A stretch of DNA of 64,000 bases from Candidatus Kapaibacterium sp. (GCA_963665665.1 OY762428.1:5394199-5458198), one strand, 5' to 3'; positions 11,526 to 64,000 are shown, numbered from the stretch's first letter. A program made the numbers and translations. Notes: generated from the sequence alone by a model not told the origin.

Positions 11526-11692
11526 TTTTTTTACCTCAACTGTTAATGTTAGTAAAATTAAAATATAATAAAAACAAGTACTTGTGTCAACACATTTCTT
11601 GTTTTGATGGGATTTTTTTTCAAATTTTTTCGAATTTTCCCATCCCTTTACCATAGATTAACAGATTTGCAAAAAAAAGTTCCGCGCAAGCC

Positions 11693-20380: not shown

Positions 20381-20386
20381 ATTATG

Positions 20387-44773: not shown

Positions 44774-45517
44774 TTAATACATGCCTTGTCCGTTAAGCAG
44801 GCCGATATTATCGATTATACCGCTTGCTTCGATATTAAATTCAATGCTTGCCTGATAGGGTTTTATTTCTTTGGGTCCAAACTGAATTATTAGCTGCAGG
44901 GTACTTTGCGCCGGTATCTCTTTTGGCAATTGCGAACGAAAAACAAAGACGTTTTCCGAGCTTACAATTTTGTAAGATTTAACATTAACTGTCTGGTTAG
45001 TGTTATTTCTGATGTAAATTGGTTTTGATTTTGTTGTATTAACAGATTGATTCGAAAAATCTACATCACCAACTTCGACCGAAGGGACGGAAGCCCTGAG
45101 CAAAAGAAACGGTTTATCATATCCACCGATAAACATGGTATCTTTGAATACCCCAAGTTCTTTAGCAGTAAAGTTAATAAATACCGGCTGCCTGAAACCC
45201 GGACTACCCTGCGGAGCAAGAGTTACAGGTAAAGAACCGTTCAAAGGGCTGAACAATTCCGGATGCTGAGAAAATGAAAGGCTGTCAATTATCAACTGTT
45301 TTTTTGTGAGATTAATAATTTCAATATCAAGGGGCTTGGTAAGTTCATAAGAAACCAACTCATAATCCAGCCCGGTTCTATTGAGTGCAATATCGTCATT
45401 GCTTGTTCCACCGGATCCGGTTTCTGTTACTTCACGATTTGCAGGTACATCAATTGGCGAAGAACATGATACCCATGCCAAAATAGCAATTAACGTTATG
45501 ATGATAAAATATTTCAA
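44774..45517 (-). CDS. Lipoprotein with two Ig-like (ASH/choice-of-anchor D type) domains
   Basis: Lipobox AWVSC; two repeats of D(Y/F)...I.I.N.T.....I.S...P...F pattern. Confidence 0.7.
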   Translation of the reverse strand: MKYFIIITLIAILAWVSCSSPIDVPANREVTETGSGGTSNDDIALNRTGLDYELVSYELTKPLDIEIINLTKKQLIIDSLSFSQHPELFSPLNGSLPVTLAPQGSPGFRQPVFINFTAKELGVFKDTMFIGGYDKPFLLLRASVPSVEVGDVDFSNQSVNTTKSKPIYIRNNTNQTVNVKSYKIVSSENVFVFRSQLPKEIPAQSTLQLIIQFGPKEIKPYQASIEFNIEASGIIDNIGLLNGQGMY

Positions 45518-45536
45518 AATACTTTCCTGTTTATTA

Positions 45537-46706: not shown

Positions 46707-46726
46707 TTTAATTAACCTTCGATATT

Positions 46727-47305
46727 TTATTCTTCATTTTCTTCAATATACGGGGCCAGTATATCCCTGAGTTTTTGCTTGGCCCGATAGATCCTGATTC
46801 TTATTGACGGAAGAGTTGAATCCAGTACTTCGGCAATTTCCTGATAGGACATCCCAAGGAATTCTTTCAGAACAAGAACCTCCCTATATTTTTGGGGTAA
46901 GGCCTGCAGGGCTGTTTCCAAAAGGTCAACTCTTTCTTTCGTTTCGTATGACTGGTCGCTGACCGGATAGATTAATTCTTCGAATGATAGAAAACTATGA
47001 TGTTTTCTTGCTTTTTCGTTGATACACAAATTTCTTGCAATTCTGAAAATAAACGCGCTCACATTTGTCATATTTCTTTCTTTTTTCGCGCTTTCCAGAA
47101 ATCGAAGAAATGTTTCCTGGAAGATATCTTCAGCAAGTTCACTGTCAAACAGGATCCTGTTACAATAGGTAAATATCTTTGTCGAAAACCTGTTGTAAAG
47201 TTCATCAAATGCCAGCCGCGCAGATTTTCTATTTCCACCGAGGAAATCGTAAAGTTGCTCATCGGACAACATTTTCATACTGTTTATGTCATTTCTTCCT
47301 ATCAT
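46727..47305 (-). CDS. ECF (sigma-70 group 4) RNA polymerase sigma factor
   Basis: AEDIFQETF, FRIARNLCIN, LPQKYREVLVL, SYQEIAEVL, RAKQKL. Confidence 0.95.
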   Translation of the reverse strand: MIGRNDINSMKMLSDEQLYDFLGGNRKSARLAFDELYNRFSTKIFTYCNRILFDSELAEDIFQETFLRFLESAKKERNMTNVSAFIFRIARNLCINEKARKHHSFLSFEELIYPVSDQSYETKERVDLLETALQALPQKYREVLVLKEFLGMSYQEIAEVLDSTLPSIRIRIYRAKQKLRDILAPYIEENEE

Positions 47306-50389: not shown

Positions 50390-52365
50390 TGAAAAGGAAA
50401 ATATTTATTCTGATTATCGGCCTGATAATATCAGCAAATTCATTTGCTCAGGAAAACTCATCACCAAGCAGAATAGGGCTTTACGGAGCTTATGGATTCA
50501 ATTCCCACACAGCGGATTTTAATTCACTGACCGGCCTTGTCAGCTGTTGCCCTGATTATAAAGATGCAAGCGGCTCCGGCCTGATCTTCGGGGCAATATT
50601 CGAACAATATATAGCAAGCAAATTATATATTGGTGTGCGCCTGGGTTACTATTCATTCAAAGGCGAATTTGAAAATGACGAAATACAGACCGTTTATGAT
50701 TATACAACAGATGATGCCGTGGATGCAACTTTTCGTCATAACTTCAACCCGGAATTTGCCTATCTTTCCTTCCAGCCTGAGTTATCATATAACCCGATAG
50801 CCGGATTAATGCTCAGAGCAGGTGTAAGAACTGACTTTTTAAATATTTCATCTGATTTTGATCATTCTGAAACAATTATTAACCCGGAATATTTGAATTA
50901 TGAAAACGGTACAAATACCAGGTTAAATTCCGAAGGTGAAATCGAGGATCTTGTGAAAACAAATTTTTCAGTCACCCTCGGGCTGGGATATGATATTGCT
51001 TTGTCGGACAATAACAAGTTCTACCTGACACCGGAAATATCTTATCAGCTTGGATTAACAGACATTGTAAAAGATAAAGACTGGAAAGTAAATATTTTTA
51101 CCGCAGGATTATCTTTTAAATATGCATTTGGTTCTGAATCTGATTCCCACTCCCCTATCGTATCGCTTTCTGAATCAGGAACAAGTTCCGGCACCGGAAA
51201 TATCAGAGCAATGGCTTTAACCGATGATGGAAATGTTGACGATCTGGCAACTGTACGGATTGAGGAATTTAAAACTAAGAAAATGAAACCGCTGCTTAAT
51301 TATATATTTTTCGATGAAAATTCTGCAAGAATACCTGAAAGATATAAAAGAATTTCAAGAAACGAAACTTCTAACTTTTCCGAACAGGACTTATCAACAT
51401 ACAATGATATACAAACTTATTATCACATTTTGAACATTCTTGGCAAAAGAATGAAACTGAACCCCGATGCGAAAATTTCCGTTGACGGATGTAATAGTAA
51501 TTCAGGCCTTGAAAAAGACAACCTTAACCTTAGCGTCAGAAGAGCTTTAGCTGTCCGGAATTATCTTATCAGGATATGGGATATCAGCCCGGATCGGATC
51601 ATTGTTGATAAGCGGGGCCTGCCGGCCAATCCATCAGCAATTGACAATCCCGACGGAATGGCCGAAAATCGCAGAGTTGAGATAAATTCCGACAAATGGG
51701 AAATAATTGCTCCGGTTTATTCAGAAACAACTTCAATAGAAACAAAACCTGCCGGAATCAGGTTCGAAACAGAAATCGAAGGTAATACCGACATCAGTGA
51801 ATGGAATATTGATGTTCTGCAGAACGGCAGACAGGTAAAAACTTTCTCAGGAAGGGATGCTGTCCCCGGAACTATCGACTGGAAGATTAGCGGCTCGAAT
51901 TCCAGCAGCATCACAAATGACGATCTGCTGACATATAAAATGACAATGAGCAACGGCTCTGACATATTTACTTCAAATGAGCAAACCATTCCTGTTGAGT
52001 ATCTCTCACTGAAGAAAAAAGTAGTTGAGAAACTCTCTGATATATCTTTATACAGATTCAGCCTGCTCTCATCCTTTGATGAAAATGAACTTAGCCCGTA
52101 CAATAAAAAATTAATGGATATGATAAAAGCCGAGATAAGCCCTGAATCAGAGATTACAGTTGCCGGTTATACCGACAGGCTCGGCACAGAAAATTATAAC
52201 AAGGAATTATCAGAAAAAAGAGCAAAAGCCCTGGCTGATGAATTTAGTGCCAGCAAAATTGAAACAGTAGGCTATGGCGAGTCAAGAATGGATTTCGACA
52301 ATAACAATCCGGAAGGACGATTCTATAGCCGTCGTGTAGATGTTACAATTTCAACCCCCCGCTAA
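50389..52365 (+). CDS. Outer-membrane beta-barrel protein with two OmpA-like domains
   Basis: N-terminal barrel ending AGLSFKYAF; OmpA-like 1 IFFDENS...LSVRRA...NRRVEI; OmpA-like 2 GYTDRLG...LSEKRA...SRRVDV. Confidence 0.85.
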   Translation: MKRKIFILIIGLIISANSFAQENSSPSRIGLYGAYGFNSHTADFNSLTGLVSCCPDYKDASGSGLIFGAIFEQYIASKLYIGVRLGYYSFKGEFENDEIQTVYDYTTDDAVDATFRHNFNPEFAYLSFQPELSYNPIAGLMLRAGVRTDFLNISSDFDHSETIINPEYLNYENGTNTRLNSEGEIEDLVKTNFSVTLGLGYDIALSDNNKFYLTPEISYQLGLTDIVKDKDWKVNIFTAGLSFKYAFGSESDSHSPIVSLSESGTSSGTGNIRAMALTDDGNVDDLATVRIEEFKTKKMKPLLNYIFFDENSARIPERYKRISRNETSNFSEQDLSTYNDIQTYYHILNILGKRMKLNPDAKISVDGCNSNSGLEKDNLNLSVRRALAVRNYLIRIWDISPDRIIVDKRGLPANPSAIDNPDGMAENRRVEINSDKWEIIAPVYSETTSIETKPAGIRFETEIEGNTDISEWNIDVLQNGRQVKTFSGRDAVPGTIDWKISGSNSSSITNDDLLTYKMTMSNGSDIFTSNEQTIPVEYLSLKKKVVEKLSDISLYRFSLLSSFDENELSPYNKKLMDMIKAEISPESEITVAGYTDRLGTENYNKELSEKRAKALADEFSASKIETVGYGESRMDFDNNNPEGRFYSRRVDVTISTPR

Positions 52366-52392
52366 AAAAAAGATAAAAATTATTCTGATAAG

Positions 52393-52425
52393 GCATCCGG
52401 AAATAATTTCGGATGCTTTTTTTTT
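52393..52425 (+). terminator. Intrinsic terminator
   Basis: GCATCCG...CGGATGC followed by a run of nine T. Confidence 0.85.
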
Positions 52426-52496
52426 GCAAAAATTATTAGCCTGTATTGGCGGGGGTGGATTCTTCTCTGGTAACAGGCATCCCTGAACAAAAAGTG

Positions 52497-52586
52497 GTCA
52501 TTCTGAGAAAGCGAAGCGACCGAAGAATCCATGCAAAATAGCAGATAATGTATGAGGAATGGACTCTTCGCTGCGCTCAGAGTGAA
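52497..52586. repeat. REP-like palindromic element, copy A
   Basis: GTCATTCTGAG...GAAGAATCCAT-(variable loop)-ATGGACTCTTC...CTCAGAGTGA. Confidence 0.85.
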
Positions 52587-52634
52587 AGATCTGCGGGGAT
52601 TGAGACAGGGCCGGAAATAATAATTCAAAACCCC

Positions 52635-52662
52635 TGCAACTTTATACCGGATAATTTGTTAT
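52635..52662 (+). promoter_or_regulatory. Putative ECF-type promoter of array gene 1
   Basis: TGCAAC-N16-TGTTAT. Confidence 0.5.
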
Positions 52663-52702
52663 ATTTATAAATCACGAGAATAAAAAAGGAGAGGATGAAA
52701 AT

Positions 52703-55700
52703 ATGCCATTTCCAACAAAAAAAGAGATTGATGGTTTTATTAATCCAATTCATCCTATTAATCCAAGTTTAGAATCATACTATCCCGGAGTTTTTATGCG
52801 TGCTTTAATACTATCTATTTTAGTTTTTATAATATCAATATCTTCATCCTACTCACAAACAAGAGACAGCATCCCCATTCACTTAGACTGGGCTGCTTAT
52901 TATGCCGGAGCATTCCTTGATGATATTGATTACGATTCAAAAGGTAATGTCATATTTGTTTCAAATATTCAACCGAACCATAAAAAGGACTGGAAAACAT
53001 ATTTGGTCAAAATGGATTCTAATTCCAATCGTTTATGGGAAATTATGTTTCCGGAAGACAGGCTGCCGACTATTTGTATTGACCCCTGGGATAATATTAT
53101 TATTGGTACTGAAAACAGGCTGGAAAAATACTCTCCCGACGGTAAACTTTTATGGTCATTCAAAGATCCCGAAGTTGTTCCCATATTCTCATATCTAATT
53201 TCTGATAAAGAAGGAAATATTTATTGCCGGTATGGATATTGCGAAAATTTCTGTAAAATAAATAGGGACGGAATTCTTGAATGGAAAAAATATTATGGCA
53301 ACGATGTACTTATTATTGCATTAAATAGTAATGATGATCTGATCGTTCTAAGATCAGACACACATTCCATGTTGGATTATAATTACTATATTTTAAATAA
53401 AGAAGACGGTTCAGTCCTGTTTAGAAAAAAATCAATATCGGGATATGAAGTCAGGTGGATTGCAGTTGATAGTGATGATAATATCATTTTTTCGGGCGTT
53501 GATTATAATTTTGACGATACACCCTGGGATAATAAATGTACTGCAAAGATTGATAAGGATGGGAACCTGATTTATAATATTATTTACCCCACTAACGAAG
53601 CTTTATTTGATGTTGATCCGATGTTTGAATTCCAGATAAACGCTGTTGATCAGTTCGGAAATGCTTATATAGCTTCAACTCATGCAATTTATAAAATTGA
53701 TCCAAACGGCAAAATACTATGGGTTTACGATGTACCATTTTATTTATTATCAATTAAATATCAACCGCCAAATACATTATTTGTGGGAGGCTCAGCAAAA
53801 GACTTTTTACCTGAGGTATGGGATTCTGTAAATACTGATTACCAGATACCCGGCCATCCAGCATTCCTCGCGAAATTTACCGTTGAGAGGATTAATTTTG
53901 AGATTTACGACCAAAACATTGAAGAGCAGTTTGATACCCTTGATCTTGGTAAAATATGCCTTGGCGATACGAAAACAGGCTTTGCGGCAGTTAAGAATTT
54001 CTCGGATTTCGGCCTGCAACTAAAACCGCCGGTGTTTACTGACTCAGAGCATTTCACGGGCGAATACATGCGCGGGGATTCGCTTTTCTGGAATGATACG
54101 CTTGGCGTTAGAATACATGTTGGCCCCGACAAAACCGGGCCGATTGAAACCATGATGTACATATACTCCAATGAAGACGATGCTGTAATGGATTCCCTGC
54201 TGATAAAAGCCCTCGTCGTAGAGCCGGGAATGGAGATCAGCAATGATATTGACTTCGGGTATGTGAAGTTCGGGAAACGTCCCGAGAAGACATTCACAAT
54301 ACACAATTCCGGAACATCAGATTTGTATATCAGTGATTTAAATGAGTTCGATCTGCCATTCAGGATCACGGAAACAGCCCCTGCTATACCGGCAGTCCTC
54401 ACCCCCGGCGACAGCATGATTGTTACAATGACAGTTCAGGGCACAGCCGAGGCTGAGTATTTTGATACGCTTTCTGTTGAAACCCAAAAGATTGGCGAGG
54501 CCTGCCCGATTGACGGCTTTGTGAAACTGCATACTATAACACTTCGCTACGAACTTGCTGCAAACGATATTGACTACGGCTTCGTGGCGGACTGCAAGAC
54601 CCCGCAAGACACCGTCAGGCTTGTGAACTGCGGCGGCGCCCCGGTTAAACTCATTGACGAAGGATACCTGAAAAATAAAGATGATTTTGAAATTGTCTCG
54701 GCAACGCCTTCTGGGACTGTCATTAATTTTCTCGACACCGCTTTTTATGTGATACGCTTTACTCCTCAAGTTCCCGACGGCCTGAAAACTGGTGAATTGA
54801 GGATTAAGACAGATCACCCTGAAGAGGGATTCCGCACTGTCCAGCTTCGCGGCGAGACCGAATCTGTGAACCTCACTGCTGAGAATATTTCCTTCGGCGA
54901 AGTGGGAATAAACCGCGATTCAACTTTGAAATGCGTACTCACCAACCACAACGGATTTGAACTAACAATATCCGAAATAATTGAGAACCATGACTGGCTG
55001 GAAATTCAGCCGCAATCATTCATCATCCCGGCAGGCGAGGAATACGAAATAGATGTGAAGATCAACCTAAGCGATCCTATCGATTATTCAGCATGGCCGC
55101 AGATCATTGTTCAAGGCCCCTGCCCTGACACTGTGGCTTTCAAAATTGATGCTACCGGCATAAAATCCTCCGTTGAGGTAACTCCCCTTTGCAATTATAA
55201 TGAAACGGAATTCTGCCAGTACAAAACGATGGATATTGAGATTAAAAATACAGGCAAACTACCGCTAACACTACTTTCCGGGGAAATTCAGGGCGCTGAT
55301 AAAGAACTCTTTGCATTCGAAGATAGTTATGAAAATTTGGAGATCCTGCCGGGAGAATCAATAATAGAAAAAATTGTATTCACTCCCGAATCATCAACAA
55401 ACGGCCACAAAACAGCACAGGCTCGAAATATAATATTGATCGATATGGTTGAGGAAGAATTTATTACAGAGCTGCAAGGTGAAAGATACACCATACTTTA
55501 TAATATTCCTGAATCTGTCTCGGTTTCGGCAAGGATCAGCGAAAACGGAACAGAGCAAATTGAACTAAAGAACACGGCAGAATATGATTTTACTATAGAA
55601 GAAATCAGCCTTGAAAATCCAGCCGAATTTTCAATTGCTCCCGACCTGGCAGGAAGGAAAATCAATGCGGGACTTTCTGAAAAGCTGACTGTATCTTTAT

Positions 55701-56470
55701 TCTCAAACATTGCAGGAGATTATGATGATAAAATATACCTGAAGTTTGCCGGCCCATTCTGCGAATACCGCGACACTATTGATATATCCGGAATAGTAAA
55801 ACATGAAAACCTGATTTTCTTTCCCGAAGCAATAGGAACTATAGGCGATCCTGATTTCCGCATCCCGTTAATGGTGAACCTGAATTCCACCGAGGATGTA
55901 AGCGGACTTTCCTACACCGCCGAGATCAGCCTTGACGCTTATCTGTACGACCTTACAGGCATTGACAACGCAAACATTCTCAGCAATGAAATATCAGGCA
56001 GGGAGCGGATTTTAAGCATATCAGGAGAAAACATCAGCCTTAGTAATGGCGAACAGGCAATCGCGGAACTATCCGGCGGCCTGCTTCTTTCCGACATTCG
56101 AGAATGCGAATTAAAAATAAACAGCTTCGAGTGGGACAGTCCCTATATCGACAATTCCACCCAAAACGGCCTGCTGAAAGTGGAAGAAATTTGCATCGGC
56201 GACCTGCGGGCAATATCCACATTCGCAATACCCGGCATCACAGCCTGTCCCAACCCTGCAACCGGCCAAATCGAAATCAACCTCAGCGGCGACATTTCCA
56301 ATCCGCAGAGCCTCGAAATATACGATTCACAGGGCAAGCTCCTCCGCGAACTTCCCATTAACAGCAAAGACAAAATTAAAATAAACATTCAGGAACTGTC
56401 CTCAGGCCTCTACTTCCTCATCCTGAAAACCGCCACCGGCATATATTATGACAAGGTGGTTGTGGAGTAA
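52703..56470 (+). CDS. Large T9SS surface protein, array copy 1 (beta-propeller head, Ig-like stalk, cohesin-like domain, CTD)
   Basis: DxxGN...K.D..G...W blade repeats, several IDFG.V...I.N.G Ig-like repeats, ACPNPA...YDSQGK...SGLYFL CTD. Alternative start ATG 52796 (GGAG RBS, signal peptide). Confidence 0.85.
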   Translation: MPFPTKKEIDGFINPIHPINPSLESYYPGVFMRALILSILVFIISISSSYSQTRDSIPIHLDWAAYYAGAFLDDIDYDSKGNVIFVSNIQPNHKKDWKTYLVKMDSNSNRLWEIMFPEDRLPTICIDPWDNIIIGTENRLEKYSPDGKLLWSFKDPEVVPIFSYLISDKEGNIYCRYGYCENFCKINRDGILEWKKYYGNDVLIIALNSNDDLIVLRSDTHSMLDYNYYILNKEDGSVLFRKKSISGYEVRWIAVDSDDNIIFSGVDYNFDDTPWDNKCTAKIDKDGNLIYNIIYPTNEALFDVDPMFEFQINAVDQFGNAYIASTHAIYKIDPNGKILWVYDVPFYLLSIKYQPPNTLFVGGSAKDFLPEVWDSVNTDYQIPGHPAFLAKFTVERINFEIYDQNIEEQFDTLDLGKICLGDTKTGFAAVKNFSDFGLQLKPPVFTDSEHFTGEYMRGDSLFWNDTLGVRIHVGPDKTGPIETMMYIYSNEDDAVMDSLLIKALVVEPGMEISNDIDFGYVKFGKRPEKTFTIHNSGTSDLYISDLNEFDLPFRITETAPAIPAVLTPGDSMIVTMTVQGTAEAEYFDTLSVETQKIGEACPIDGFVKLHTITLRYELAANDIDYGFVADCKTPQDTVRLVNCGGAPVKLIDEGYLKNKDDFEIVSATPSGTVINFLDTAFYVIRFTPQVPDGLKTGELRIKTDHPEEGFRTVQLRGETESVNLTAENISFGEVGINRDSTLKCVLTNHNGFELTISEIIENHDWLEIQPQSFIIPAGEEYEIDVKINLSDPIDYSAWPQIIVQGPCPDTVAFKIDATGIKSSVEVTPLCNYNETEFCQYKTMDIEIKNTGKLPLTLLSGEIQGADKELFAFEDSYENLEILPGESIIEKIVFTPESSTNGHKTAQARNIILIDMVEEEFITELQGERYTILYNIPESVSVSARISENGTEQIELKNTAEYDFTIEEISLENPAEFSIAPDLAGRKINAGLSEKLTVSLFSNIAGDYDDKIYLKFAGPFCEYRDTIDISGIVKHENLIFFPEAIGTIGDPDFRIPLMVNLNSTEDVSGLSYTAEISLDAYLYDLTGIDNANILSNEISGRERILSISGENISLSNGEQAIAELSGGLLLSDIRECELKINSFEWDSPYIDNSTQNGLLKVEEICIGDLRAISTFAIPGITACPNPATGQIEINLSGDISNPQSLEIYDSQGKLLRELPINSKDKIKINIQELSSGLYFLILKTATGIYYDKVVVE

Positions 56471-56530
56471 TTTAAACGAAATGTTACTATTCAGCTGAAC
56501 TTTGAAAATATATAAAAATTGTATAAAGTG

Positions 56531-56619
56531 GTCATTCTGAGAAAGCGAAGCGACCGAAGAATCCATATAAAATAGCAGAAAATCATAAAGAATGGACTCT
56601 TCGCTGCGCTCAGAGTGAC
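56531..56619. repeat. REP-like palindromic element, copy B
   Basis: Same arms as copy A, different central loop. Confidence 0.85.
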
Positions 56620-56667
56620 AGCTCTGAGGGGTTTGAGACAGGGCCGAAAATAATAATTCAAAACCCC

Positions 56668-56695
56668 TGCAACTTTATGCCGTATAATTTGTTAT
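56668..56695 (+). promoter_or_regulatory. Putative ECF-type promoter of array gene 2
   Basis: TGCAAC-N16-TGTTAT. Confidence 0.5.
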
Positions 56696-56727
56696 ATTTA
56701 CATATATTATCATAATAATATGAAAAA

Positions 56728-59700
56728 ATGAGGATGGAGACCATGCCGGACAATTACAAAAATATTTTTGATTATATATTTTCGCGTTCCCTTATATTTA
56801 TGTCAATCTTTATCATTTCTTATTTATCAGCCCTTTCCCGCAATAATGACAGCATACCTGTTCACTTAGACTGGGCTGCATATTATGCCGGAGGTTCCTG
56901 TGTGGATATTGATTTGGATTCAAAAGGTAATGTCTATTTTATTAGCGACGGAGTTGCAAGTGAGATTGACTATTTTGTAAAATTCGGTCCGGATTCTAAA
57001 TTAATTTGGTCAAAAGAATTTATTAATAGTAAATACACGTGCCTGGACGTAGATCCTGATGATAATATCATTGTTGGAATAGGAAAAACTTTGAGGAAGT
57101 ATTCACCTGATGGAGAAATAATCTGGAGCTATGACTTTTCAGAAAAATATGCAGAAATATCATATTTAATTTGCGATAGCAAAGGAAATATATTTTGCAG
57201 ATATAAAAGTGACTACATGATATGTAAAGTTGGAAAGGACGGAAATCTGGTTTGGAAAAATGTTTTCTGGGGAGGAAACAATTCAATAATAGCAGTTAAT
57301 AGCAATGATGATTTGATCGTTCTAAAATCTGATACTCATTCCACATTAGATAATAATTATTTCATTCTCGATAAAAATGATGGGAGTATTATTTTCCAAA
57401 AAAAAGCTATTTCCGGATATGCACCATTTTGGATAGCTGTTGATAAAGATGATAATATTATTTTTTCGGGAGTAAACGCAAATTTACCAGATTCAGTAGT
57501 CGATAATGAAAACACTACTAAAATCAATAAAAATGGAGATTTTGTTTATGAAATAATATATCCAAATCATAGCTTATTGATCACTAAAATAACAGAGCCA
57601 GAATTTCAAATTAATACTGTAGATCAATATGGTAATGCTTATGTAGCTTGTAGACATAGTTTTTCTGGAAAGCCAGATAACTGTGATATCCTTATAAAGA
57701 AAATTAATCCTGACGGACTGATACTTTGGGAACATAGATTTGGAGATATTGAAATTGGTGTTCATGACGTACCTTTAACACTAATTTTCACTCCACCGAA
57801 TACATTATGTGTTGGAGGTACTACTGAAGGAAAATTAGAAAAATATTATGATAATGTCAATACAGATTACCAGGTATCCGGCCATCCAGCATTCCTTGCA
57901 AAATTTACCGTTGAGCGGATTAATTTTGAAATTTACGACCAAAACATTGAAGAGCAGTTTGATACACTTGATCTGGGTAAAATATGCCTTGGCGATTCGA
58001 AAACAGGCTTTGCGGCAGTTAAGAATTTCTCGGATTTCGGCCTTGAGCTAAAACCGCCTGTTTTCGATGATAGCGATCATTTTTCCGGCGAATACATGCG
58101 GGGGGATTCGCTTTTCTGGAATGATACGCTTGGTGTTAGAATACATGTTGCCCCGGACAAAACCGGGCCGATTGAAACAATGATGTACATCTACTGCAAT
58201 GAAGATGATGCTGTAATGGACTCCCTGCTGATAAAAGCTCTCGTCGTAGAGCCGGGAATGGAGATTAGCAATGATATTGACTTCGGGTATGTGAAGTTCG
58301 GGAAACGTCCCGAGAAGACATTCACAATACATAATATCGGAACTTCAGATTTGTACATTAGTGATTTAAATGATTTCGATCTGCCATTCAGGATCACCGA
58401 AACAGACCCTGCAATACCGGCAGTCCTCATTCCCGGCGACAGCATGATTGTTACAATGACAGTTCAGGGCACAGCCGAAGAGGAGTATTTCGATACCCTT
58501 TTTATTGAAACACAAAAGATTGGCGAGGCCTGCCCAATCGACTGCTTTGTGAACCTGCATACTATAACACTGCGTTATGAACTTGCTGCAAACGATATTG
58601 ACTACGGCTTCGTGGCTTCTTGCGAAACTCCGCTCGATACTGTCAGGCTTGTGAACTGCGGCGCCGCCCCGATTGAACTCCTTGACGAAGGATACCTTAA
58701 TAATAAAGATGATTTTGAAATTGTTTCGGCAACGCCAATGGGGACTGTCCTTAATTTTCTCGACACCGCGTTCTACCTGATACGCTTTACTCCGCAAGCT
58801 CCCGACGGCCTGAAAACTGGCGAACTAAGGATCAAAACAGACCACCCTGAAGAAGGATTCCGCACTGTCCGGCTTCGTGGCGAGACTGAATCTGTGAACC
58901 TCACTGCTGAGAATATTTCCTTCGGCAATGTGGGAATAAACCGCAATTCAACTTTGAAATGTGTACTCACCAACCACAACGGCTTCGAACTAACAATATC
59001 CGAAATAATTGAGAACCATGACTGGCTGGAAATCCTGCCGCAATCATTCATCATCCCGGCAGGCGAGGATTACGAAATAGATGCGAAAATCAAACTGGTT
59101 GACGCAATTGAATATTCTGCATGGCCGCAGATCATTGTTCAAGGCCCCTGCCCGGATACCGTGGCTTTCAAAATTGACGCTACCGGCATAAAATCCTCCG
59201 TTGAGGTAACTCCACTTTGCAATTATAATGAAACTGAATTCTGCCAGTCCAAAACGATGGATATTGAGATTAAAAACACCGGCAAACTACCAATATCACT
59301 ACTTTCAGGAGAAATTCAAGGCGCTGACAAAGAGCTGTTTTCATTCGAAGACAATTATGAGAATATTGAGATTCTGCCCGGAGAATCAATAATTGAGAAA
59401 GTCATTTTCACTCCCGAATCATCCATAAACGGCCCGAAAACAGCACAGGCTCGAAATATAATATTGATCGATATGGTTGAGGAAGAATTCACTACAGAAC
59501 TGCAAGGCGAAAGATACACAATCCTTTACGAAATTCCCGAATCAGTCTCGGTTTTGGCGAGGATCAGCGAAAACGCAACAGAGCAAATCGAAATAAAGAA
59601 TACCGGCGAATATGATTTTACAATAGAAGAAATCAGCCTTGAAAATGCAGCCGAATTTTCTATTGCTCCCGACCTGACAGGAAGGAAAATTAACACAGGT

Positions 59701-60498
59701 AATTCTGAAATGCTGACTGTATCTTTATTCTCAGGCATTGCAGGAGATTATGATGATAAAATATACCTGAAGTTTGCCGGCCCATTCTGCGAATATCGGG
59801 ATACTATTGATATATCCGGTATAGTAAAACATGAAAACCTGATTTTCTTCCCCGAAACAATAGGAACTATAGGCGATCCTGATTTCCGCATCCCGTTAAT
59901 GGTAAGCCTGAATTCCACCGAGGATATAAGCGGATTGTCCTACACCGCCGAGATCAGCCTTGACGCTTATCTGTACGACCTTACCGGCATTGACAACGCA
60001 ACCATTCTCAGCAATGAAAAATCCGGCAGAGAGCGAATTTTAAGTATATCGGGAGAAAATATCAGCCTTAGCAAAGGCGAGCAGGCAATAGCGGAACTAT
60101 CCGGCGGCCTGCTGCTGTCCGACATTCGCGAATGCGAATTAAAAATAAACAGCTTCGAGTGGGACAGCCCCTATATCGACAATTCCACCCAAAACGGCTT
60201 TCTGAAAGTTGAAGAAATCTGCATCGGCGACTTGCGGGCAATATCCACTTTCGCAATCCCCGGCATCACAGCCTGTCCCAACCCTGCAACCGGCCAAATC
60301 GAAATCAATCTCAGCGGCGACATTTCCAATCCGCAGAGCCTTGAAATATACGATTCACAGGGCAAGCTCCTCCGCGAACTTCCCCTCAACAGCAAAGATA
60401 AAATTAAAATAAACATTCAGGACTTGCCCTCCGGCCTCTACTTCCTCATCCTGAAAACCGCCACCGGCGTTTATTATGATAAGGTGGTTGTGGAGTAA
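56728..60498 (+). CDS. Large T9SS surface protein, array copy 2
   Basis: Same architecture as copy 1; near-identical from NTDYQxxGHPAFLAKF to YYDKVVVE, divergent head. Possible start ATG 56743. Confidence 0.85.
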   Translation: MRMETMPDNYKNIFDYIFSRSLIFMSIFIISYLSALSRNNDSIPVHLDWAAYYAGGSCVDIDLDSKGNVYFISDGVASEIDYFVKFGPDSKLIWSKEFINSKYTCLDVDPDDNIIVGIGKTLRKYSPDGEIIWSYDFSEKYAEISYLICDSKGNIFCRYKSDYMICKVGKDGNLVWKNVFWGGNNSIIAVNSNDDLIVLKSDTHSTLDNNYFILDKNDGSIIFQKKAISGYAPFWIAVDKDDNIIFSGVNANLPDSVVDNENTTKINKNGDFVYEIIYPNHSLLITKITEPEFQINTVDQYGNAYVACRHSFSGKPDNCDILIKKINPDGLILWEHRFGDIEIGVHDVPLTLIFTPPNTLCVGGTTEGKLEKYYDNVNTDYQVSGHPAFLAKFTVERINFEIYDQNIEEQFDTLDLGKICLGDSKTGFAAVKNFSDFGLELKPPVFDDSDHFSGEYMRGDSLFWNDTLGVRIHVAPDKTGPIETMMYIYCNEDDAVMDSLLIKALVVEPGMEISNDIDFGYVKFGKRPEKTFTIHNIGTSDLYISDLNDFDLPFRITETDPAIPAVLIPGDSMIVTMTVQGTAEEEYFDTLFIETQKIGEACPIDCFVNLHTITLRYELAANDIDYGFVASCETPLDTVRLVNCGAAPIELLDEGYLNNKDDFEIVSATPMGTVLNFLDTAFYLIRFTPQAPDGLKTGELRIKTDHPEEGFRTVRLRGETESVNLTAENISFGNVGINRNSTLKCVLTNHNGFELTISEIIENHDWLEILPQSFIIPAGEDYEIDAKIKLVDAIEYSAWPQIIVQGPCPDTVAFKIDATGIKSSVEVTPLCNYNETEFCQSKTMDIEIKNTGKLPISLLSGEIQGADKELFSFEDNYENIEILPGESIIEKVIFTPESSINGPKTAQARNIILIDMVEEEFTTELQGERYTILYEIPESVSVLARISENATEQIEIKNTGEYDFTIEEISLENAAEFSIAPDLTGRKINTGNSEMLTVSLFSGIAGDYDDKIYLKFAGPFCEYRDTIDISGIVKHENLIFFPETIGTIGDPDFRIPLMVSLNSTEDISGLSYTAEISLDAYLYDLTGIDNATILSNEKSGRERILSISGENISLSKGEQAIAELSGGLLLSDIRECELKINSFEWDSPYIDNSTQNGFLKVEEICIGDLRAISTFAIPGITACPNPATGQIEINLSGDISNPQSLEIYDSQGKLLRELPLNSKDKIKINIQDLPSGLYFLILKTATGVYYDKVVVE

Positions 60499-60558
60499 TT
60501 TAAACGAAATGTTACTATTCAGCTGAACTTTGAAAATATATAAAAATTGTATAAAGTG

Positions 60559-60649
60559 GTCATTCTGAGAAAGCGAAGCGACCGAAGAATCCATCTTTGT
60601 TTGCAGATAGTGTGTGAAGAATGGATTCTTCGCTGACGCTCAGAATGAC
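60559..60649. repeat. REP-like palindromic element, copy C
   Basis: GTCATTCTGAG/CTCAGAATGAC and GAAGAATCCAT/ATGGATTCTTC perfectly complementary arms. Confidence 0.88.
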
Positions 60650-60815
60650 AGCTCTGCGGGGTTTGAGACAGAGCCGGAAATAATAATTCAAAACCCCTGC
60701 AACTTTATACTATTTCAGATGGACTCCACCTTTTTTCGACAAAATTCTAATTTTCTTATTTCAATTTTCTTGTCTATAGCAGGTAAATTCTATCGTTCTA
60801 AAAAAAGATTTTTCC

Positions 60816-60843
60816 TGCAACTTTCTAGATTTTGATTTGTTAT
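60816..60843 (+). promoter_or_regulatory. Putative ECF-type promoter of array gene 3
   Basis: TGCAAC-N16-TGTTAT with a spacer different from those of copies 1 and 2. Confidence 0.5.
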
Positions 60844-60987
60844 ATTATTTGATAATCGATGTTATTGTAAGGAAAAAAGCAATCATTTGAAGTCAGCAAA
60901 ATGAATTCAAAGCGGGGAATTTGATCAATTTACATTTAACTTTAAAACAGTAAATAAATTTTGTTTCCTGATTTTACGGAGTCAGTT

Positions 60988-63900
60988 ATGCGCCCGATCA
61001 TACTTCTTATTATTTTATTTGTCGCTTCAATAAATACATTCGCAAAAATCGAAAAGACATCCCCACTTGTTAAGGAATGGGAAATAGGTACTTATGGTTT
61101 TGATTCATACTGGCATGCAGATTTCAGCGTTGATACAAAAGGAAATGTTTATATATTTGAACCATATAAACACTACGGACATCCCGATAATTGTTCTGAT
61201 TATAAATTAAGTAAAATTGATAAAAACGGTAAATTAGTATGGCAAATAGAAGTCTATCATTGGTATAGGAATCATTCGGCTCATAATGACGAACTTGAAT
61301 TAGATCCCTTTGGCAACATTTTTTTTTGGAAGTTAGATACGCTAATGAAATACGATTCTGATGGAAATTTTGTGTGGAAAAAAAATTTGCTTAACTACAA
61401 ACGTTATTATTATTACGATTGGTATTCATTTGAAATTGACAGCAAGGGAAATATTATATATTATGATTTTGTTGATACCCAACCGCGAAATTATTTTTTA
61501 ACAAAAATTGATAATGATGGAAATTTGATTTGGAAAGTCCCAATAAATTATTTTAATACATATAATAATGAAATTATGATTGATTCAAATGATAATATTG
61601 CAGTTTATTCCAATAAAATAGATACCTTATTCCAAATTATAACATATTCTGGTACAAATGGAGAAATTTTGTCAACATCAAAAAATTTTTCAAAGTTTAT
61701 TTTTGATGCAAAATTTGATAATTACGATAATATTTGTTTTGTTGAATACGTGGCTCATGGTTTTTCCTGCTATTTTAATAAAATGTCAGGTGATGGAAAC
61801 ATTATGTTTCGTAAATTGTTAGATACAAATCCAACTTATTATTATTCTAATACTGGAAATTATAACGATGATGATAACGATTTTTGTTTCGATAATAATA
61901 ATTCAGCATATATTCCTGTTGGAATTACACCTGAAGGAACCTCCGCCGATACTCTTTATGCTTATAATGCAAATTTTAATCCATCAATCATTAAAATTGA
62001 TAAAAATGGAAGAAGAATGTGGAAATTCACGGATCCTGGCCCTAAAAATAAATTTTTCACACATATAATATTTTCACCGCCAAATACATTATATGTTCTT
62101 GGAAATTCTGAAATTAAAGCAGGAAATAGTTCATACAATCATCAAAATAAATTATGTAAATATTATATTGACACCATTGATATGATAATAACCGATTACC
62201 AAGTAGAAAATGAAATTGATACCCTTGATCTTGGGAAAATATGCCTTGGCGATACGAAAACAGGATATGCGGCAGTTAAGAATTTCTCGGATTTTGGCCT
62301 TGAACTAAAACCGCCGGTGTTTACTGACTCAGAGCATTTCACGGGTGAATACATGCGGGGGGATTCGCTTTTCTGGAATGATACACTTGGTGTGAGAATA
62401 CATATTGCCCCGGACAAAACCGGGCCGATTGAAACAATGATGTACATCTACTGCAATGAAGATGATGCTGTAATGGACTCCCTGCTGATAAAAGCTCTCG
62501 TCGTAGAGCCGGGAATGGAGATTAGCAATGATATTGACTTCGGGTATGTGAAGTTCGGGAAACGTCCCGAGAAGACATTCACAATCCGAAATACCGGAAC
62601 CTCAGATTTGTATATCAGCGACTTAAATGAGTTCGATCTGCCATTCAGGATTACGGAAACAGACCCGGCTATTCCGGCAGTCCTCATTCCCGGTGACAGC
62701 ATGATTGTTACAATGACAGTCCAGGGCACAGCCGAAGAGGAATATTTTGATACGCTTTCGGTTGAAACCAAAAAGATTGGCGAGGCCTGCCCAATTGACG
62801 GATTTGTGAACATGCATACTATAACCCTGCGTTATGAACTTGCTGCAAACGATATTGATTACGGCTTCGTGGCTGACTGCAAGACCCCGCAAGACACCGT
62901 CAGGCTTGTGAACTGCGGCGCAGCCCCGGTTAAACTCATTGACGAAGGATACCTTAATAATAAAGATGATTTTGAAATTGTGTCAGCAACGCCTTCGGGG
63001 ACAGTCCTCAATTTTCTCGACACCGCGTTCTACCTGATACGCTTTACCCCAAAAGCGCCCGACGGCCTGAAAACTGGCGAACTGAGGATTAAGACAGATC
63101 ACCCTGAAGAGGGATTCCGTACTGTCAGGCTTCGTGGCGAGACCGAATCTGTGAACCTCACTGCTGAGAATATTTCCTTCGGCAATGTGGGAATAAACCG
63201 CGATTCAACTTTGAAATGCGTACTCACCAACCACAACGGTTTCGACCTGCTTATTTCCTCAATCATTGAAAACCATGCCTGGCTGGAAATCCTGCCACAA
63301 TCATTTACTATCCCTGTCGGAGAGGATTTCGAAATAGATGTGAAGATCAACCTGGCTGACGCAATTGAATATTCAGCATGGCCGCAGATCATAATTCAAG
63401 GCCCCTGCCCGGATACCGTGGCTTTCAGAATTGATGCTACCGGCATAAAATCCTCCGTTGAGGTAACTCCACTTTGCAATTATAATGAAACTGAATTCTG
63501 CCAGTCCAAAACGATGGATATTGAGATTAAAAACACCGGCAAACTACCAATATCACTACTTTCAGGAGAAATTCAAGGCGCTGACAAAGAGCTGTTTTCA
63601 TTCGAAGACAATTATGAGAATATTGAGATTCTGCCCGGAGAATCAATAATTGAGAAAGTCATTTTCACTCCCGAATCATCCATAAACGGCCCGAAAACAG
63701 CACAGGCTCGAAATATAATATTGATCGATATGGTTGAAGTGGAATTCATTACAGAGCTGCAAGGTGAAAGATACACAATACTTTACGATATTCCGGAATT
63801 CGTCTCGGTTTCAGCAAGGATCAGCGAAAACGCAACAGAACAAATTGAATTAAAGAACACGGCAGAATATGATTTTACGATAGAAGAAATCAACCTTGAA

Positions 63901-64000
63901 AACGCAGCCGAATTTTCTATTACTCCCGACCTGGCAGGAAGGAAAATCAATGCGGGACTTTCGGAAATGCTGACTGTATCTTTATTTTCAAACATTGCAG
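60988..64000 (+). CDS. Large surface protein, array copy 3 (runs off the window end)
   Basis: Not in ORF track; ATG 60988 after GGAG, signal peptide MRPIILLIILFVASINTFA, propeller repeats, and the same frame reaches DTLDLGKICLGDTKTG at 62218. Confidence 0.85.
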   Translation, partial: MRPIILLIILFVASINTFAKIEKTSPLVKEWEIGTYGFDSYWHADFSVDTKGNVYIFEPYKHYGHPDNCSDYKLSKIDKNGKLVWQIEVYHWYRNHSAHNDELELDPFGNIFFWKLDTLMKYDSDGNFVWKKNLLNYKRYYYYDWYSFEIDSKGNIIYYDFVDTQPRNYFLTKIDNDGNLIWKVPINYFNTYNNEIMIDSNDNIAVYSNKIDTLFQIITYSGTNGEILSTSKNFSKFIFDAKFDNYDNICFVEYVAHGFSCYFNKMSGDGNIMFRKLLDTNPTYYYSNTGNYNDDDNDFCFDNNNSAYIPVGITPEGTSADTLYAYNANFNPSIIKIDKNGRRMWKFTDPGPKNKFFTHIIFSPPNTLYVLGNSEIKAGNSSYNHQNKLCKYYIDTIDMIITDYQVENEIDTLDLGKICLGDTKTGYAAVKNFSDFGLELKPPVFTDSEHFTGEYMRGDSLFWNDTLGVRIHIAPDKTGPIETMMYIYCNEDDAVMDSLLIKALVVEPGMEISNDIDFGYVKFGKRPEKTFTIRNTGTSDLYISDLNEFDLPFRITETDPAIPAVLIPGDSMIVTMTVQGTAEEEYFDTLSVETKKIGEACPIDGFVNMHTITLRYELAANDIDYGFVADCKTPQDTVRLVNCGAAPVKLIDEGYLNNKDDFEIVSATPSGTVLNFLDTAFYLIRFTPKAPDGLKTGELRIKTDHPEEGFRTVRLRGETESVNLTAENISFGNVGINRDSTLKCVLTNHNGFDLLISSIIENHAWLEILPQSFTIPVGEDFEIDVKINLADAIEYSAWPQIIIQGPCPDTVAFRIDATGIKSSVEVTPLCNYNETEFCQSKTMDIEIKNTGKLPISLLSGEIQGADKELFSFEDNYENIEILPGESIIEKVIFTPESSINGPKTAQARNIILIDMVEVEFITELQGERYTILYDIPEFVSVSARISENATEQIELKNTAEYDFTIEEINLENAAEFSITPDLAGRKINAGLSEMLTVSLFSNIA

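What the first reader, a model, noticed from the sequence alone, without database searches (positions are those of the whole stretch)
52497..64000. Tandem array of surface proteins with variable beta-propeller heads on a constant stalk, each unit led by the same hairpin/promoter cassette
Seen: at least three co-oriented paralogs (52703, 56728, 60988; homologous stalk positions 53933, 57961, 62218, i.e. spacings of 4028 and 4257 bp). The C-terminal ~850 aa (Ig-like repeats, cohesin-like domain, T9SS CTD) is nearly identical between copies 1 and 2, and in copy 3 as far as the window reaches. The N-terminal ~400 aa propeller is divergent, keeping only blade motifs and PPNTL(F/C/Y)V. The switch is abrupt: copies 1/2 converge at NTDYQxxGHPAFLAKF (53831/57859), copy 3 at DTLDLGKICLG (62218). 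Copies 1/2 also share a short 5' anchor (cacttagactgggctgc.tattatgccggag), so their variable part sits between two conserved blocks. Inference: a modular adhesin or receptor diversification system in which heads are exchanged by recombination on a shared stalk. No recombinase, reverse transcriptase or transposase is visible in the window.
Basis: partly seen in the sequence, partly recalled or inferred. Interest (0 to 1): 0.8.

Follow-up and report, generated by a model that had tools for sequence, protein, structure and literature searches.

The report
Surface-protein gene array with shared stalk
Three neighbouring genes encode secreted surface proteins that carry different propeller-shaped tips on an almost common stalk, kept alike by repeated copying between the genes: a clear but not unprecedented example of how bacteria build families of surface proteins.

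Summary
Three co-oriented genes (52703-56470, 56728-60498, 60961 to the window end) share a stalk of Ig-like domains with a type IX secretion tail, behind a repeated upstream cassette. The stalks are about 90% identical in DNA and 91-92% in protein, not nearly identical. The heads are homologous seven-bladed beta-propellers, 26-53% identical.

Stalk and head have different histories:
- Synonymous divergence is 0.30-0.36 in the stalk and saturated (1.7-2.5) in the head.
- Variant sites in the stalk form a mosaic (111 runs against 174.6 expected, 0 of 10000 shuffles).
- Head and stalk trees conflict (AU p 0.0005 and 0.0016).
- Stalk GC3 is 0.47-0.49, head GC3 0.21-0.30.
- Two further same-stalk proteins appear to lie on the same genome contig. 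One carries an unrelated FGE-sulfatase/C-type-lectin head.

Best reading: a paralog family evolving in concert by gene conversion and occasional head replacement, displaying binding heads on the cell surface. I found no sign of a programmed switching system: no recombinase or reverse transcriptase and no silent cassettes. The cohesin-like domain and the promoter are unconfirmed. This is a new member of a known kind (compare the gingipain/HagA adhesin regions and the Bartonella Vomp array). Interest is moderate.

The parts
52390..52419 (+). Intrinsic-terminator-like hairpin ending the upstream OmpA-family gene. It marks the left border of the array.
   Evidence: 13-pair stem followed by a T run, the only strong terminator-like site in 52300-64000. 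One search shows the OmpA domain of ORF 50389-52365.
52488..52672 (+). Upstream cassette of unit 1. It holds a long imperfect hairpin (52497-52586), a second hairpin (52595-52634) and the conserved box CTGCAACTTT...ATTTGTTATATTTA (52634-52672).
   Evidence: The hairpin folds at -38.7 kcal/mol (z -1.95). There is no Rfam family. Promoter function is not shown.
52738..52764 (+). 9-nt tandem repeat (3 copies) in the leader, upstream of the likely true start at 52796.
   Evidence: The equivalent stretch is much longer in the annotated N-terminus of paralog P0005.
52796..53830 (+). Head 1: a signal-peptide-like leader (MRALIL..., about 52796-52858) and a seven-bladed beta-propeller. The longest ORF starts at 52703.
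   Evidence: The model has pLDDT 81.4, pTM 0.82 and 28 strands, and matches CylK at TM 0.66-0.67.
53831..53938 (+). Linker (NTDYQ...EEQFDT). It is alike in copies 1 and 2 (95% aa) but not in copy 3 (35% aa).
53939..56470 (+). Stalk 1: about six Ig-like (choice-of-anchor D / HYDIN-VesB type) domains, an unassigned beta domain, and the T9SS type A C-terminal domain (56249-56464).
56471..56705 (+). 60-nt tail after the stop codon (identical to 60499-60558), then the upstream cassette of unit 2 (hairpin arm from 56531, box at 56667).
56728..57858 (+). Head 2: leader and beta-propeller. The database version of this protein starts at 56743.
   Evidence: It is 53% identical to head 1.
57859..60498 (+). 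Linker and stalk 2, with the T9SS C-terminal domain at 60277-60492.
60499..60960 (+). Tail, upstream cassette of unit 3 (hairpin arm from 60559, box at 60697), then a stretch unique in the window that carries a second copy of the box at 60815.
60988..62217 (+). Head 3: leader (MRPIILL...) and a divergent beta-propeller. The longest ORF starts with TTG at 60961.
   Evidence: It is 25% identical to head 1 (E 8e-13) and 28% identical to P0012 (E 3e-44).
62218..64000 (+). Stalk 3, cut off by the end of the window.

Best explanation
This is a tandem family of type IX secretion cargo proteins. Each gene encodes a Sec leader, a distal N-terminal binding head, a rod of about six Ig-like domains, and a type A C-terminal domain that directs export and probably surface attachment. 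In the window the head is a seven-bladed beta-propeller.

The heads are old, separately evolving lineages. The stalk, the short tail after the stop codon and the upstream cassette are kept alike within the genome by repeated homologous gene conversion between copies. Conversion tracts run from tens to a few hundred bases and end at different points. Occasionally a whole leader or head is replaced.

The result is a repertoire of co-existing surface proteins with one scaffold and different specificities. It is not an on-demand switch.

- Shown: the architecture, the homology of the three window heads, the mosaic stalk, and the conflict between head and stalk histories.
- Inferred: surface display, ligand binding by the heads, and that the cassette carries the promoter.
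For: **Architecture**
- PF22544 (64.7 bits, cut-off 25.5) and PF18962 (46.8 bits, cut-off 27) match.
- NF012200 (80.7, cut-off 45) and TIGR04183 (43.6, cut-off 23) match.
- The head model has pLDDT 81.4, pTM 0.82 and 28 strands. It matches CylK at E 1.6e-15, TM 0.66-0.67, and other seven-bladed propellers.
- A profile of the family matches the CylK propeller at 1.2e-10 over profile positions 41-357.
- The stalk model is all-beta and matches chains of tandem Ig/ASH domains.

**Different ages of head and stalk**
- Stalk dS is 0.30-0.36 with dN/dS 0.13-0.15. Head dS is 1.7-2.5, which is saturated.

**Mosaic stalk**
- There are 254 variable sites in 1773 nt, in patterns of 97/80/67 (plus 10 three-state sites).
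- They form 111 runs against 174.6 +/- 7.1 in 10000 shuffles (0 reached the observed value).
- The longest exact tract between copies 2 and 3 is 302 nt.
- Protein-level identical tracts are significant in 6 of 15 pairs at p <= 0.004. Examples are P0002-P0005 with 274 aa and P0002-P0004 with 127 aa.
- 590 of 990 site pairs fail the four-gamete test. Local incompatibility is lower than in shuffles, p 0.0055.

**Incongruent trees**
- Head 3 groups with P0012 (support 100/99), yet its stalk is 91-95% identical to the other same-stalk proteins and 54% identical to P0012.
- The AU test rejects the head topology on stalk data (p 0.0005) and the stalk topology on head data (p 0.0016).

**Reassortment**
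- P0004 has the leader of copy 2 and the head of copy 1.
- P0011 has an FGE-sulfatase head (E 4.9e-43) on a stalk 92% identical, joined at the same point as copy 3.

**Composition**
- Stalk GC3 is 0.47-0.49 and head GC3 0.21-0.30. Twenty-one other genes average 0.357 (sd 0.031, maximum 0.415).
- This fits the link between recombination and GC content reported for bacteria (PMC4450053, abstract).
Against: - Average stalk dS of about 0.3 means homogenisation is not very recent or frequent overall.
- The correlation between local identity and GC3 within the stalk is weak (rho 0.33, p 0.14).
- Polarised third-position changes give an equilibrium GC3 of about 0.42, so they do not settle biased conversion against foreign origin.
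- Only three DNA copies were available. The other family members were seen as proteins only.
Their position relative to the array is unknown.
- The full-length copy 3 was not found in the protein collection, so its integrity beyond the window is unknown.
- No experiment or expression data bear on function. The head itself does not reach any Pfam cut-off.
Confidence: 0.75

Rival explanations
1. This is a programmed, high-frequency head-switching or antigenic-variation system. The conserved 5' anchor and stalk serve as recombination handles, and the hairpin cassette serves as a recombination or regulatory site.
For: - Conserved blocks flank the variable part in copies 1 and 2, with raised synonymous identity at the 5' anchor (0.81).
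- P0004 shows leader/head reassortment.
- Some tracts are recent and identical: 302 nt and 274 aa.
- An exact 36-nt hairpin arm lies before every unit.
- In unit 3 a 14-nt inverted repeat, 93% complementary, brackets the hairpin segment.
Against: - Each copy is a complete gene with its own cassette. No promoterless cassettes were seen.
- A full HMMER scan with head 1 found only 2 representatives at E <= 1e-30, so no stand-alone head genes surfaced.
- No recombinase, invertase, reverse transcriptase or transposase family was found (41 proteins, 18). Eight ORFs had no match in either library.
- Mean stalk dS is 0.3.
- Junctions differ between copies.
- The hairpin shows 0 compensatory changes in 29 pairs across the three copies.
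Confidence: 0.1
2. A recent tandem duplication was followed by fast divergence of the heads under positive selection. The stalk stays alike only through purifying selection.
For: The genes are in tandem and share a unit structure. Stalk dN/dS is low, 0.13-0.15.
Against: - Synonymous sites differ about five- to eight-fold between head and stalk of the same genes. Selection on the protein cannot explain that.
- Head 3 is closer to a protein of another organism, whose stalk is only 54% identical.
- The stalk is a mosaic.
- One head on the same stalk is non-homologous.
Confidence: 0.03
3. The stalk is a foreign, GC-richer module that entered the genome once. It was then fused to pre-existing head genes by domain shuffling, with little later gene conversion.
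For: Stalk GC3 (0.47-0.49) lies above all 21 other genes tested (maximum 0.415). Non-homologous heads share the stalk. Crude polarisation shows slightly more S>W than W>S changes (73 against 62).
Against: - A single capture followed by independent divergence predicts a tree-like stalk. Instead the three site patterns are nearly equal in number and strongly clustered.
- Long identical tracts link different pairs of copies.
- The upstream cassette and the tail are homogenised too.
- No match to the stalk or the cassette was found in the plasmid collection.
Confidence: 0.1
4. This is an assembly artefact: a collapsed or chimeric repeat.
For: Repeats of 2.5 kb at about 90% identity can mislead short-read assemblers. 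No reads were available.
Against: The copies differ at 254 of 1773 aligned stalk sites, so they are not collapsed. Each unit has an intact reading frame of about 1255 aa. The proteins are listed with a contig of 5.46 Mb. A related contig encodes an independent, intact member, P0004.
Confidence: 0.02

Closest known systems
Porphyromonas gingivalis RgpA / Kgp / HagA adhesin regions (T9SS cargo)
   Same: These are T9SS type A cargo proteins. Their C-terminal adhesin regions contain identical repeats within and between genes, behind different N-terminal parts. They show combinatorial modularity, variants not linked to the catalytic-domain variants, and recombination or gene conversion invoked as the cause (PMC5266723: passages, section 20).
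   Different: Those genes are dispersed, not a tandem array with a repeated upstream cassette. The shared part consists of cleaved-adhesin and DUF2436 modules, not choice-of-anchor D Ig-like domains. The heads are cysteine proteases or absent, not propellers. No sequence relationship to them was tested here beyond the shared CTD family.
Bartonella quintana Vomp array (trimeric autotransporter adhesins)
   Same: It is a tandem array of four surface adhesin genes with conserved regions. Recombination between copies changes the repertoire, for example by deletion of vompA and vompC during infection (PMC10936683, passages).
   Different: It uses a different secretion route (type Vc) and fold (trimeric coiled-coil stalk). 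The variation described there is loss of copies. Here no deletion variants were seen and no host context is known.
CylK C-terminal domain, YncE and designed propellers (fold of the heads)
   Same: They share the seven-bladed beta-propeller fold. CylK matches at E 1.6e-15 and TM 0.66-0.67, and YncE has TM 0.64/0.75. The family profile matches CylK at 1.2e-10. The CylK domain is described as seven-bladed in PMC8916777 (passages).
   Different: Identity is 13-18% only. CylK needs an N-terminal calcium-binding domain that is absent here. No catalytic role is implied.
Treponema denticola TvpA, a variable protein of a diversity-generating retroelement (relates to the head of paralog P0011 only)
   Same: The P0011 head aligns to TvpA (2y3c) at E 5.8e-34, far better than to formylglycine-generating enzymes (5.6e-15) or PorK/GldK (3e-11). 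TvpA has the FGE-type C-type-lectin fold that carries the variable region (PMC5006420, passages).
   Different: P0011 lies outside the window and only its protein was seen. No reverse transcriptase or template repeat could be looked for. In P0011 the lectin domain is followed by the stalk, whereas in TvpA the variable region is at the very C-terminus.
Tandem Ig-like extender regions of long bacterial surface proteins (Aureispira GhpA neck, ice-binding adhesin extender)
   Same: The stalk model matches such chains of beta-sandwich domains: 9flp at rank 21 and 4p99 at rank 44.
   Different: The stalk model is of low confidence (pLDDT 60.0, pTM 0.32) and the TM-scores are about 0.1. This shows the kind of architecture, not kinship.

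Membership tests
T9SS type A cargo | C-terminal sorting domain matching PF18962 / TIGR04183 above the curated cut-off | tested here: met
   PF18962 scores 46.8 and 47.0 bits (cut-off 27) in copies 1 and 2. TIGR04183 scores 43.6 bits (cut-off 23). Copy 3 is cut off before this domain.
T9SS type A cargo | N-terminal Sec signal peptide | tested here: inconclusive
   Hydrophobic leaders (MRALILSILVFIISISSSYSQ, MRPIILLIILFVASINTFAK) were read by eye. No signal-peptide predictor was on hand.
T9SS type A cargo | T9SS machinery in the genome, and export and attachment shown | not testable with these tools
   Only other cargo-like genes are in the window (8952-11654, 29750-32323, 47699-50389). Attachment of type A cargo to anionic LPS is stated in the abstract of PMC9143113 (listing).
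SBBP / PQQ-like beta-propeller | Match to the Pfam repeat model above its cut-off | tested here: not met
   SBBP scores 8.6 bits (cut-off 20.5) and PQQ_2 16.6 bits (cut-off 27.6). Kinship is indirect: of the distant relatives that were scanned, 10 of 12 (E <= 0.001) and 20 of 30 (E <= 1e-8) carry SBBP.
SBBP / PQQ-like beta-propeller | Seven-bladed propeller fold | tested here: met
   The model has pLDDT 81.4, pTM 0.82 and 28 strands. Foldseek hits are CylK, YncE and designed seven-bladed propellers. The profile matches CylK at 1.2e-10.
Choice-of-anchor D / HYDIN-VesB Ig-like domain | Match above the curated cut-off | tested here: met
   NF012200 scores 80.7 bits (cut-off 45). PF22544 scores 59.0-65.6 bits (cut-off 25.5) in all three copies. 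Weaker internal repeats appear.
Cohesin domain | Sequence or fold match to cohesin for the region before the CTD (P0001 residues about 1005-1180) | tested here: not met
   There is no Pfam match at E <= 10 and no cohesin among the PDB matches. The leads are weak: Atlas clusters with cohesin score 0.79-0.81, and a cohesin-FN3 entry sits at rank 36 with TM 0.10/0.31 on a low-confidence model.
Gene family under concerted evolution by gene conversion | Paralogs within the genome are more alike than head-matched relatives from other genomes, in the converted part only | tested here: met
   See the identity matrices and trees and the AU tests, p 0.0005 and 0.0016.
Gene family under concerted evolution by gene conversion | Variant sites clustered in a mosaic, with identical tracts longer than chance | tested here: met
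Cassette-type antigenic variation (pilE/pilS, vlsE type; features recalled) | One expressed locus plus promoterless partial cassettes | tested here: not met
   All three units have the cassette, a start codon and a leader. No head-only relatives surfaced. The rest of the genome could not be read.
Diversity-generating retroelement | Reverse transcriptase gene and a template/variable repeat pair with adenine-specific differences | tested here: not met
   No reverse transcriptase family matched the window ORFs and no such repeat pair lies in 50000-64000. For paralog P0011, outside the window, this is not testable.
Invertase / shufflon type switch | Site-specific recombinase gene and inverted repeats around a promoter or gene segment | tested here: not met
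   No recombinase family matched. Only short AT-rich inverted repeats lie around the hairpin segment.

The most novel reading that the evidence does not exclude
The stalk is a shared display scaffold onto which this lineage loads unrelated binding heads. At least one of them, the TvpA-like C-type-lectin head of P0011, may be hypervariable through a diversity-generating retroelement. The genome would then combine two layers of diversification on one surface-protein family: gene conversion and head replacement between paralogs, and retroelement mutagenesis within a head. The repeated hairpin cassette would mark the unit borders at which whole units are duplicated or exchanged.
Probability: 0.1. 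Interest if true: 0.7.

Novelty: new member of a known kind. Interest (0 to 1): 0.4.

Why it matters
This is a clean natural example of head and stalk modularity in type IX secretion cargo outside the oral pathogens. Three independent signals agree on concerted evolution of the scaffold under ancient, diverging binding heads: synonymous divergence, the mosaic of variant sites, and tree conflict. A sharp GC3 step at the junction is consistent with the same reading.

Practical uses:
- It cautions annotators and binning or assembly pipelines about 2.5-kb near-repeats.
- It suggests a scaffold that tolerates unrelated heads, which may be useful for surface display.
- It points to a set of rare propeller heads whose ligands are unknown.

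The family is very small in public data. Searches of about 5.8 billion clustered proteins returned 8 proteins for the head and 9 for the stalk. Function therefore cannot be borrowed from relatives.

Tried and rejected
**Extending the array**
- The scan of genome contigs found only one distant locus: L001, 23% identity, a single 2178-aa ORF and not an array.
Copy number, the order of P0005 and P0011, and the organism's name therefore stayed unchecked.

**Head 3**
- A search with head 3 gave no hit among 2934 candidates, not even the full-length copy 3.

**Hairpin cassette**
- Rfam has no family for it.
- The sigma-70 scan gave nothing specific in the cassette, and the recalled Bacteroidota -7 motif TAnnTTTG is absent there and not enriched in the window (69 found, 77.8 expected).
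- The hairpin shows no covariation (0 of 29 pairs).

**Cohesin idea**
- It was not supported.

**Composition**
- GC3 against identity within the stalk is not significant.
- W/S polarisation is inconclusive.

**Other searches**
- Plasmid collection: no match to the cassette or the stalk.
- PADLOC: no defence family on the array proteins.
- A weak SAR11_0636 sRNA match at 53690-53779 (36.4 bits, gathering score 67) was set aside as chance.
- One literature search returned nothing relevant.
- Searches for T9SS cargo families with homogenised regions found only the P. gingivalis work.

**Structure prediction**


Full report
**What is there**

The last 11.5 kb of the window holds three co-oriented long ORFs: 52703-56470 (1255 aa), 56728-60498 (1256 aa) and 60961-63999, which runs off the window. 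Direct-repeat analysis finds the stalk repeat at 53931/57959/62216 with spacings of 4028 and 4257 nt. It also finds upstream repeats at 52491/56525/60553 and 52552/56585/60615. A 36-nt arm of the upstream hairpin is exact in all three units and occurs nowhere else in the window; no match appeared in any of 100 shuffles.

The array begins just after the only strong terminator-like site of the region (52390-52419). That site ends an OmpA-family gene (50389-52365), which follows another T9SS cargo gene (47699-50389).

**Unit anatomy**

Each unit consists of the following parts.
- A long imperfect hairpin that folds at -38.7 to -47.5 kcal/mol (z -1.95, -3.82, -3.53). Its arms are conserved and its loop varies.
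- A second small hairpin.
- A conserved box, CTGCAACTTT...ATTTGTTATATT, found exactly four times in the window. All four are in these cassettes, two of them in unit 3.
- A leader.
- A head of about 380-410 aa.
- A stalk of about 840 aa.
- A 60-nt tail after the stop codon, identical behind copies 1 and 2.

Unit 3 has an extra stretch between the cassette and the start codon that is unique in the window. Promoter function is not shown. The sigma-70 scan gives nothing specific to the cassette. The Bacteroidota -7 motif, which I recalled from memory, is absent there and not enriched in the window. No Rfam family matches.

The likely true starts are 52796 (MRALIL...), 56743 (the database version) and 60988 (MRPIIL...). 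I judged this by eye from the hydrophobic leaders.

**Domains**

The stalk matches the HYDIN/VesB Ig-like family and the choice-of-anchor D domain above their cut-offs. It ends in a T9SS type A sorting domain. A profile of the first clear domain finds weaker repeats along the stalk. The AlphaFold model is all-beta but of low confidence (pLDDT 60.0, pTM 0.32). Its Foldseek matches are chains of tandem Ig/ASH domains.

The heads reach no Pfam cut-off.
- A full HMMER scan with head 1 finds 726 proteins at E <= 0.001, but only 2 at E <= 1e-30.
- Of the distant hits that I scanned, 10 of 12 and 20 of 30 carry the SBBP propeller repeat.
- A profile of the family matches the propeller domain of CylK at 1.2e-10 over profile positions 41-357.
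- The model of head 1 is good (pLDDT 81.4, pTM 0.82, 28 strands). It matches CylK (TM 0.66-0.67), YncE and designed seven-bladed propellers.
- CylK's domain is described as seven-bladed in PMC8916777 (passages).

Head 3 is homologous to head 1 along its whole length (25% identity, E 8e-13).

**How alike the parts are**

- Per 100-nt window, the stalks are about 85-100% identical. Heads 1 and 2 are about 42-73% identical, and head 3 about 32-50% to the others.
- In protein, head identity is 53% (1 against 2), 26% (1 against 3) and 30% (2 against 3). Stalk identity is 91-92%.
- The short 5' anchor of copies 1 and 2 (DSIP.HLDWAAYYAG...DSKGNV) has third-position identity of 0.81, against 0.23-0.68 in the other head windows. 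It is therefore more than protein-level conservation.

**Head and stalk have different histories**

1. Synonymous divergence is 0.30-0.36 in the stalk (dN/dS 0.13-0.15) and 1.7-2.5, saturated, in the head. Purifying selection on the stalk protein cannot produce this gap.
2. Of 1773 stalk positions aligned in all three copies, 254 vary. The three two-against-one patterns are almost equally common (97, 80, 67; 10 sites have three states) and strongly clustered. There are 111 runs against 174.6 +/- 7.1, with 0 of 10000 shuffles as low. The longest exact tract between copies 2 and 3 is 302 nt.
3. Other family members were found as proteins.
I infer from this that they lie in the same genome.
   - P0004, P0007 and P0012 come from other contigs.
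   - Among the six proteins with the common stalk, 6 of 15 pairs have identical tracts longer than chance at p <= 0.004. Examples are P0002-P0005 with 274 aa and P0002-P0004 with 127 aa.
   - 590 of 990 pairs of informative sites fail the four-gamete test, and incompatibility is lower between neighbouring sites (p 0.0055 and 0.003).
4. In the head tree, head 3 groups with P0012 (100/99), and heads 1, 2, P0005 and P0004 group with P0007. In the stalk tree, the six common-stalk proteins form a star, with P0007 and P0012 far outside. Stalk identity is 91-95% within the six and 45-56% to P0007 and P0012.
5. AU tests reject the head grouping on stalk data (p 0.0005) and the stalk grouping on head data (p 0.0016). 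I had named the P0003-P0012 grouping from the sequences, before building the trees. The long branches of P0007 and P0012 remain a caveat.
6. P0004 combines the leader of copy 2, the head of copy 1 (81-96% in the first half) and a stalk segment identical to copy 2.
7. P0011 carries an unrelated FGE-sulfatase head (E 4.9e-43) on a stalk 92% identical to copy 1, joined at LDLGKICLG as in copy 3.

**Composition**

GC3 is 0.47-0.49 in the stalks and 0.21-0.30 in the heads. In 21 other genes of the window it averages 0.357 (sd 0.031, maximum 0.415). In that table the stalk 1 row is one base out of frame, and its true GC3 is the 0.492 column.

This step at the junction is what GC-biased gene conversion would give, as reported for bacteria (PMC4450053, abstract). 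A foreign origin of the stalk is not excluded. The correlation with local identity is weak (rho 0.33, p 0.14). Polarised changes (62 W>S, 73 S>W) imply an equilibrium GC3 near 0.42.

**What it is not**

- No recombinase, invertase, transposase or reverse transcriptase family matched the window ORFs (41 proteins against NCBIfam, two of them the same-stalk proteins; 18 ORFs against Pfam). Eight ORFs matched nothing in either library.
- There is no template/variable repeat pair.
- All three units are complete genes with their own cassette.
- The junction position differs between copies.
- Mean stalk dS is 0.3.

Together these argue against a programmed switch and for ordinary homologous gene conversion acting over evolutionary time, with some recent events. 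An assembly artefact is unlikely because the copies differ at 14% of stalk sites and all frames are intact, but no reads were available.

**How it most likely works (inferred)**

The C-terminal domain directs export through the T9SS. Type A cargo is then linked to anionic LPS (abstract of PMC9143113, listing). The C-terminus would therefore sit at the cell surface and the rod of Ig-like domains would hold the N-terminal head away from it. Propellers of this class, and the lectin-fold head of P0011, are typical binding modules. The ligands are unknown.

The window holds another protein built on the same plan: a VWA head, Ig-like domains and a T9SS tail at 29750-32323.

**A lead outside the window**

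The head of P0011 has as its best solved relative TvpA of Treponema denticola (2y3c, E 5.8e-34). True formylglycine-generating enzymes score 5.6e-15 and PorK/GldK 3e-11. TvpA is the variable protein of a diversity-generating retroelement, with an FGE-type C-type-lectin fold (PMC5006420, passages). Whether P0011 is such a target could not be tested, because neither its DNA nor its neighbourhood was available.

**Comparison with known systems**

- The nearest known case in the same secretion system is the gingipain/HagA group of P. gingivalis. There, identical adhesin repeats are shared within and between genes, the modules are combinatorial, and recombination is invoked (PMC5266723).
- The Bartonella quintana Vomp genes are a tandem array of adhesins with conserved regions and recombinational change (PMC10936683).
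- The present array differs in protein family, in being tandem with a repeated upstream cassette, and in carrying non-homologous heads. The principle is the same.
- My searches for T9SS cargo families with homogenised regions found only the P. gingivalis work.

**Verdict**

This is a new member of a known kind, of moderate interest.

**What stayed unchecked**

- The rest of the genome, including copy number and the end of copy 3, whose full-length protein was not found.
- The organism's identity.
- Metagenome contigs and viral contigs, which were closed.
- Any expression or population data.

Noticed in passing
52738-52764: A 9-nt tandem repeat (TATTAATCC, 3 copies) lies between the conserved upstream box and the likely true start of copy 1. 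In paralog P0005 the equivalent stretch, read as NPIHP/VHP repeats in its annotated N-terminus, is several times longer. It is therefore a variable-number repeat in the leader.
   Followed up: partly
53939-56470, 57967-60498, 62224-64000 versus 52796-53830, 56728-57858, 60988-62217: There is a sharp GC3 step at the head/stalk junction: 0.47-0.49 in the stalks against 0.21-0.30 in the heads, with other genes at 0.357 +/- 0.031. Inside the stalk, a stretch around 55136-55856 drops back to 0.33-0.38.
   Followed up: partly
outside the window (protein P0011, apparently the same 5.46-Mb contig): A same-stalk paralog carries an FGE-sulfatase / C-type-lectin head. Its best solved relative is the retroelement variable protein TvpA (E 5.8e-34).
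   Followed up: partly
60961-64000 and beyond: A search with head 3 returned nothing, not even the full-length copy 3, although the other family members of this genome are in the collection. Copy 3 may be broken beyond the window or left unannotated. This is unexplained.
   Followed up: no
60544-60557 and 60702-60715; weaker in unit 2 at 56503-56519 and 56696-56712: Short AT-rich inverted repeats (14 nt at 93% complementarity; 17 nt at 82%) bracket the hairpin segment of the cassette. They could be chance. No invertase gene is in the window.
   Followed up: no
44774-47305 (- strand): An ECF-type sigma factor gene (46727-47305) is followed by an ORF without family match (45537-46706) and a small protein with a choice-of-anchor D / ASH Ig-like domain (44774-45517). 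They run divergently from the cargo genes that precede the array. The box GCAACTTT in the cassettes resembles ECF -35 elements, from recall only.
   Followed up: no
29750-32323: Another protein is built on the same plan: a VWA head, HYDIN/VesB-type Ig-like domains and a T9SS type A tail. It has no close similarity to the array stalk.
   Followed up: partly
8952-11654 (- strand): A 900-aa DUF3160 protein (E 8.3e-155) has a T9SS-type C-terminal domain, so it is a further candidate cargo in the window.
   Followed up: no
16932-17411 (- strand): A short ORF matches only the N-terminal domain of type I restriction R subunits (HSDR_N_2, E 3.6e-33). It is a stand-alone fragment or small domain protein.
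   Followed up: no
20386-20458 (- strand): tRNA-Glu (anticodon CTC) is the only RNA gene found in the window.
   Followed up: yes
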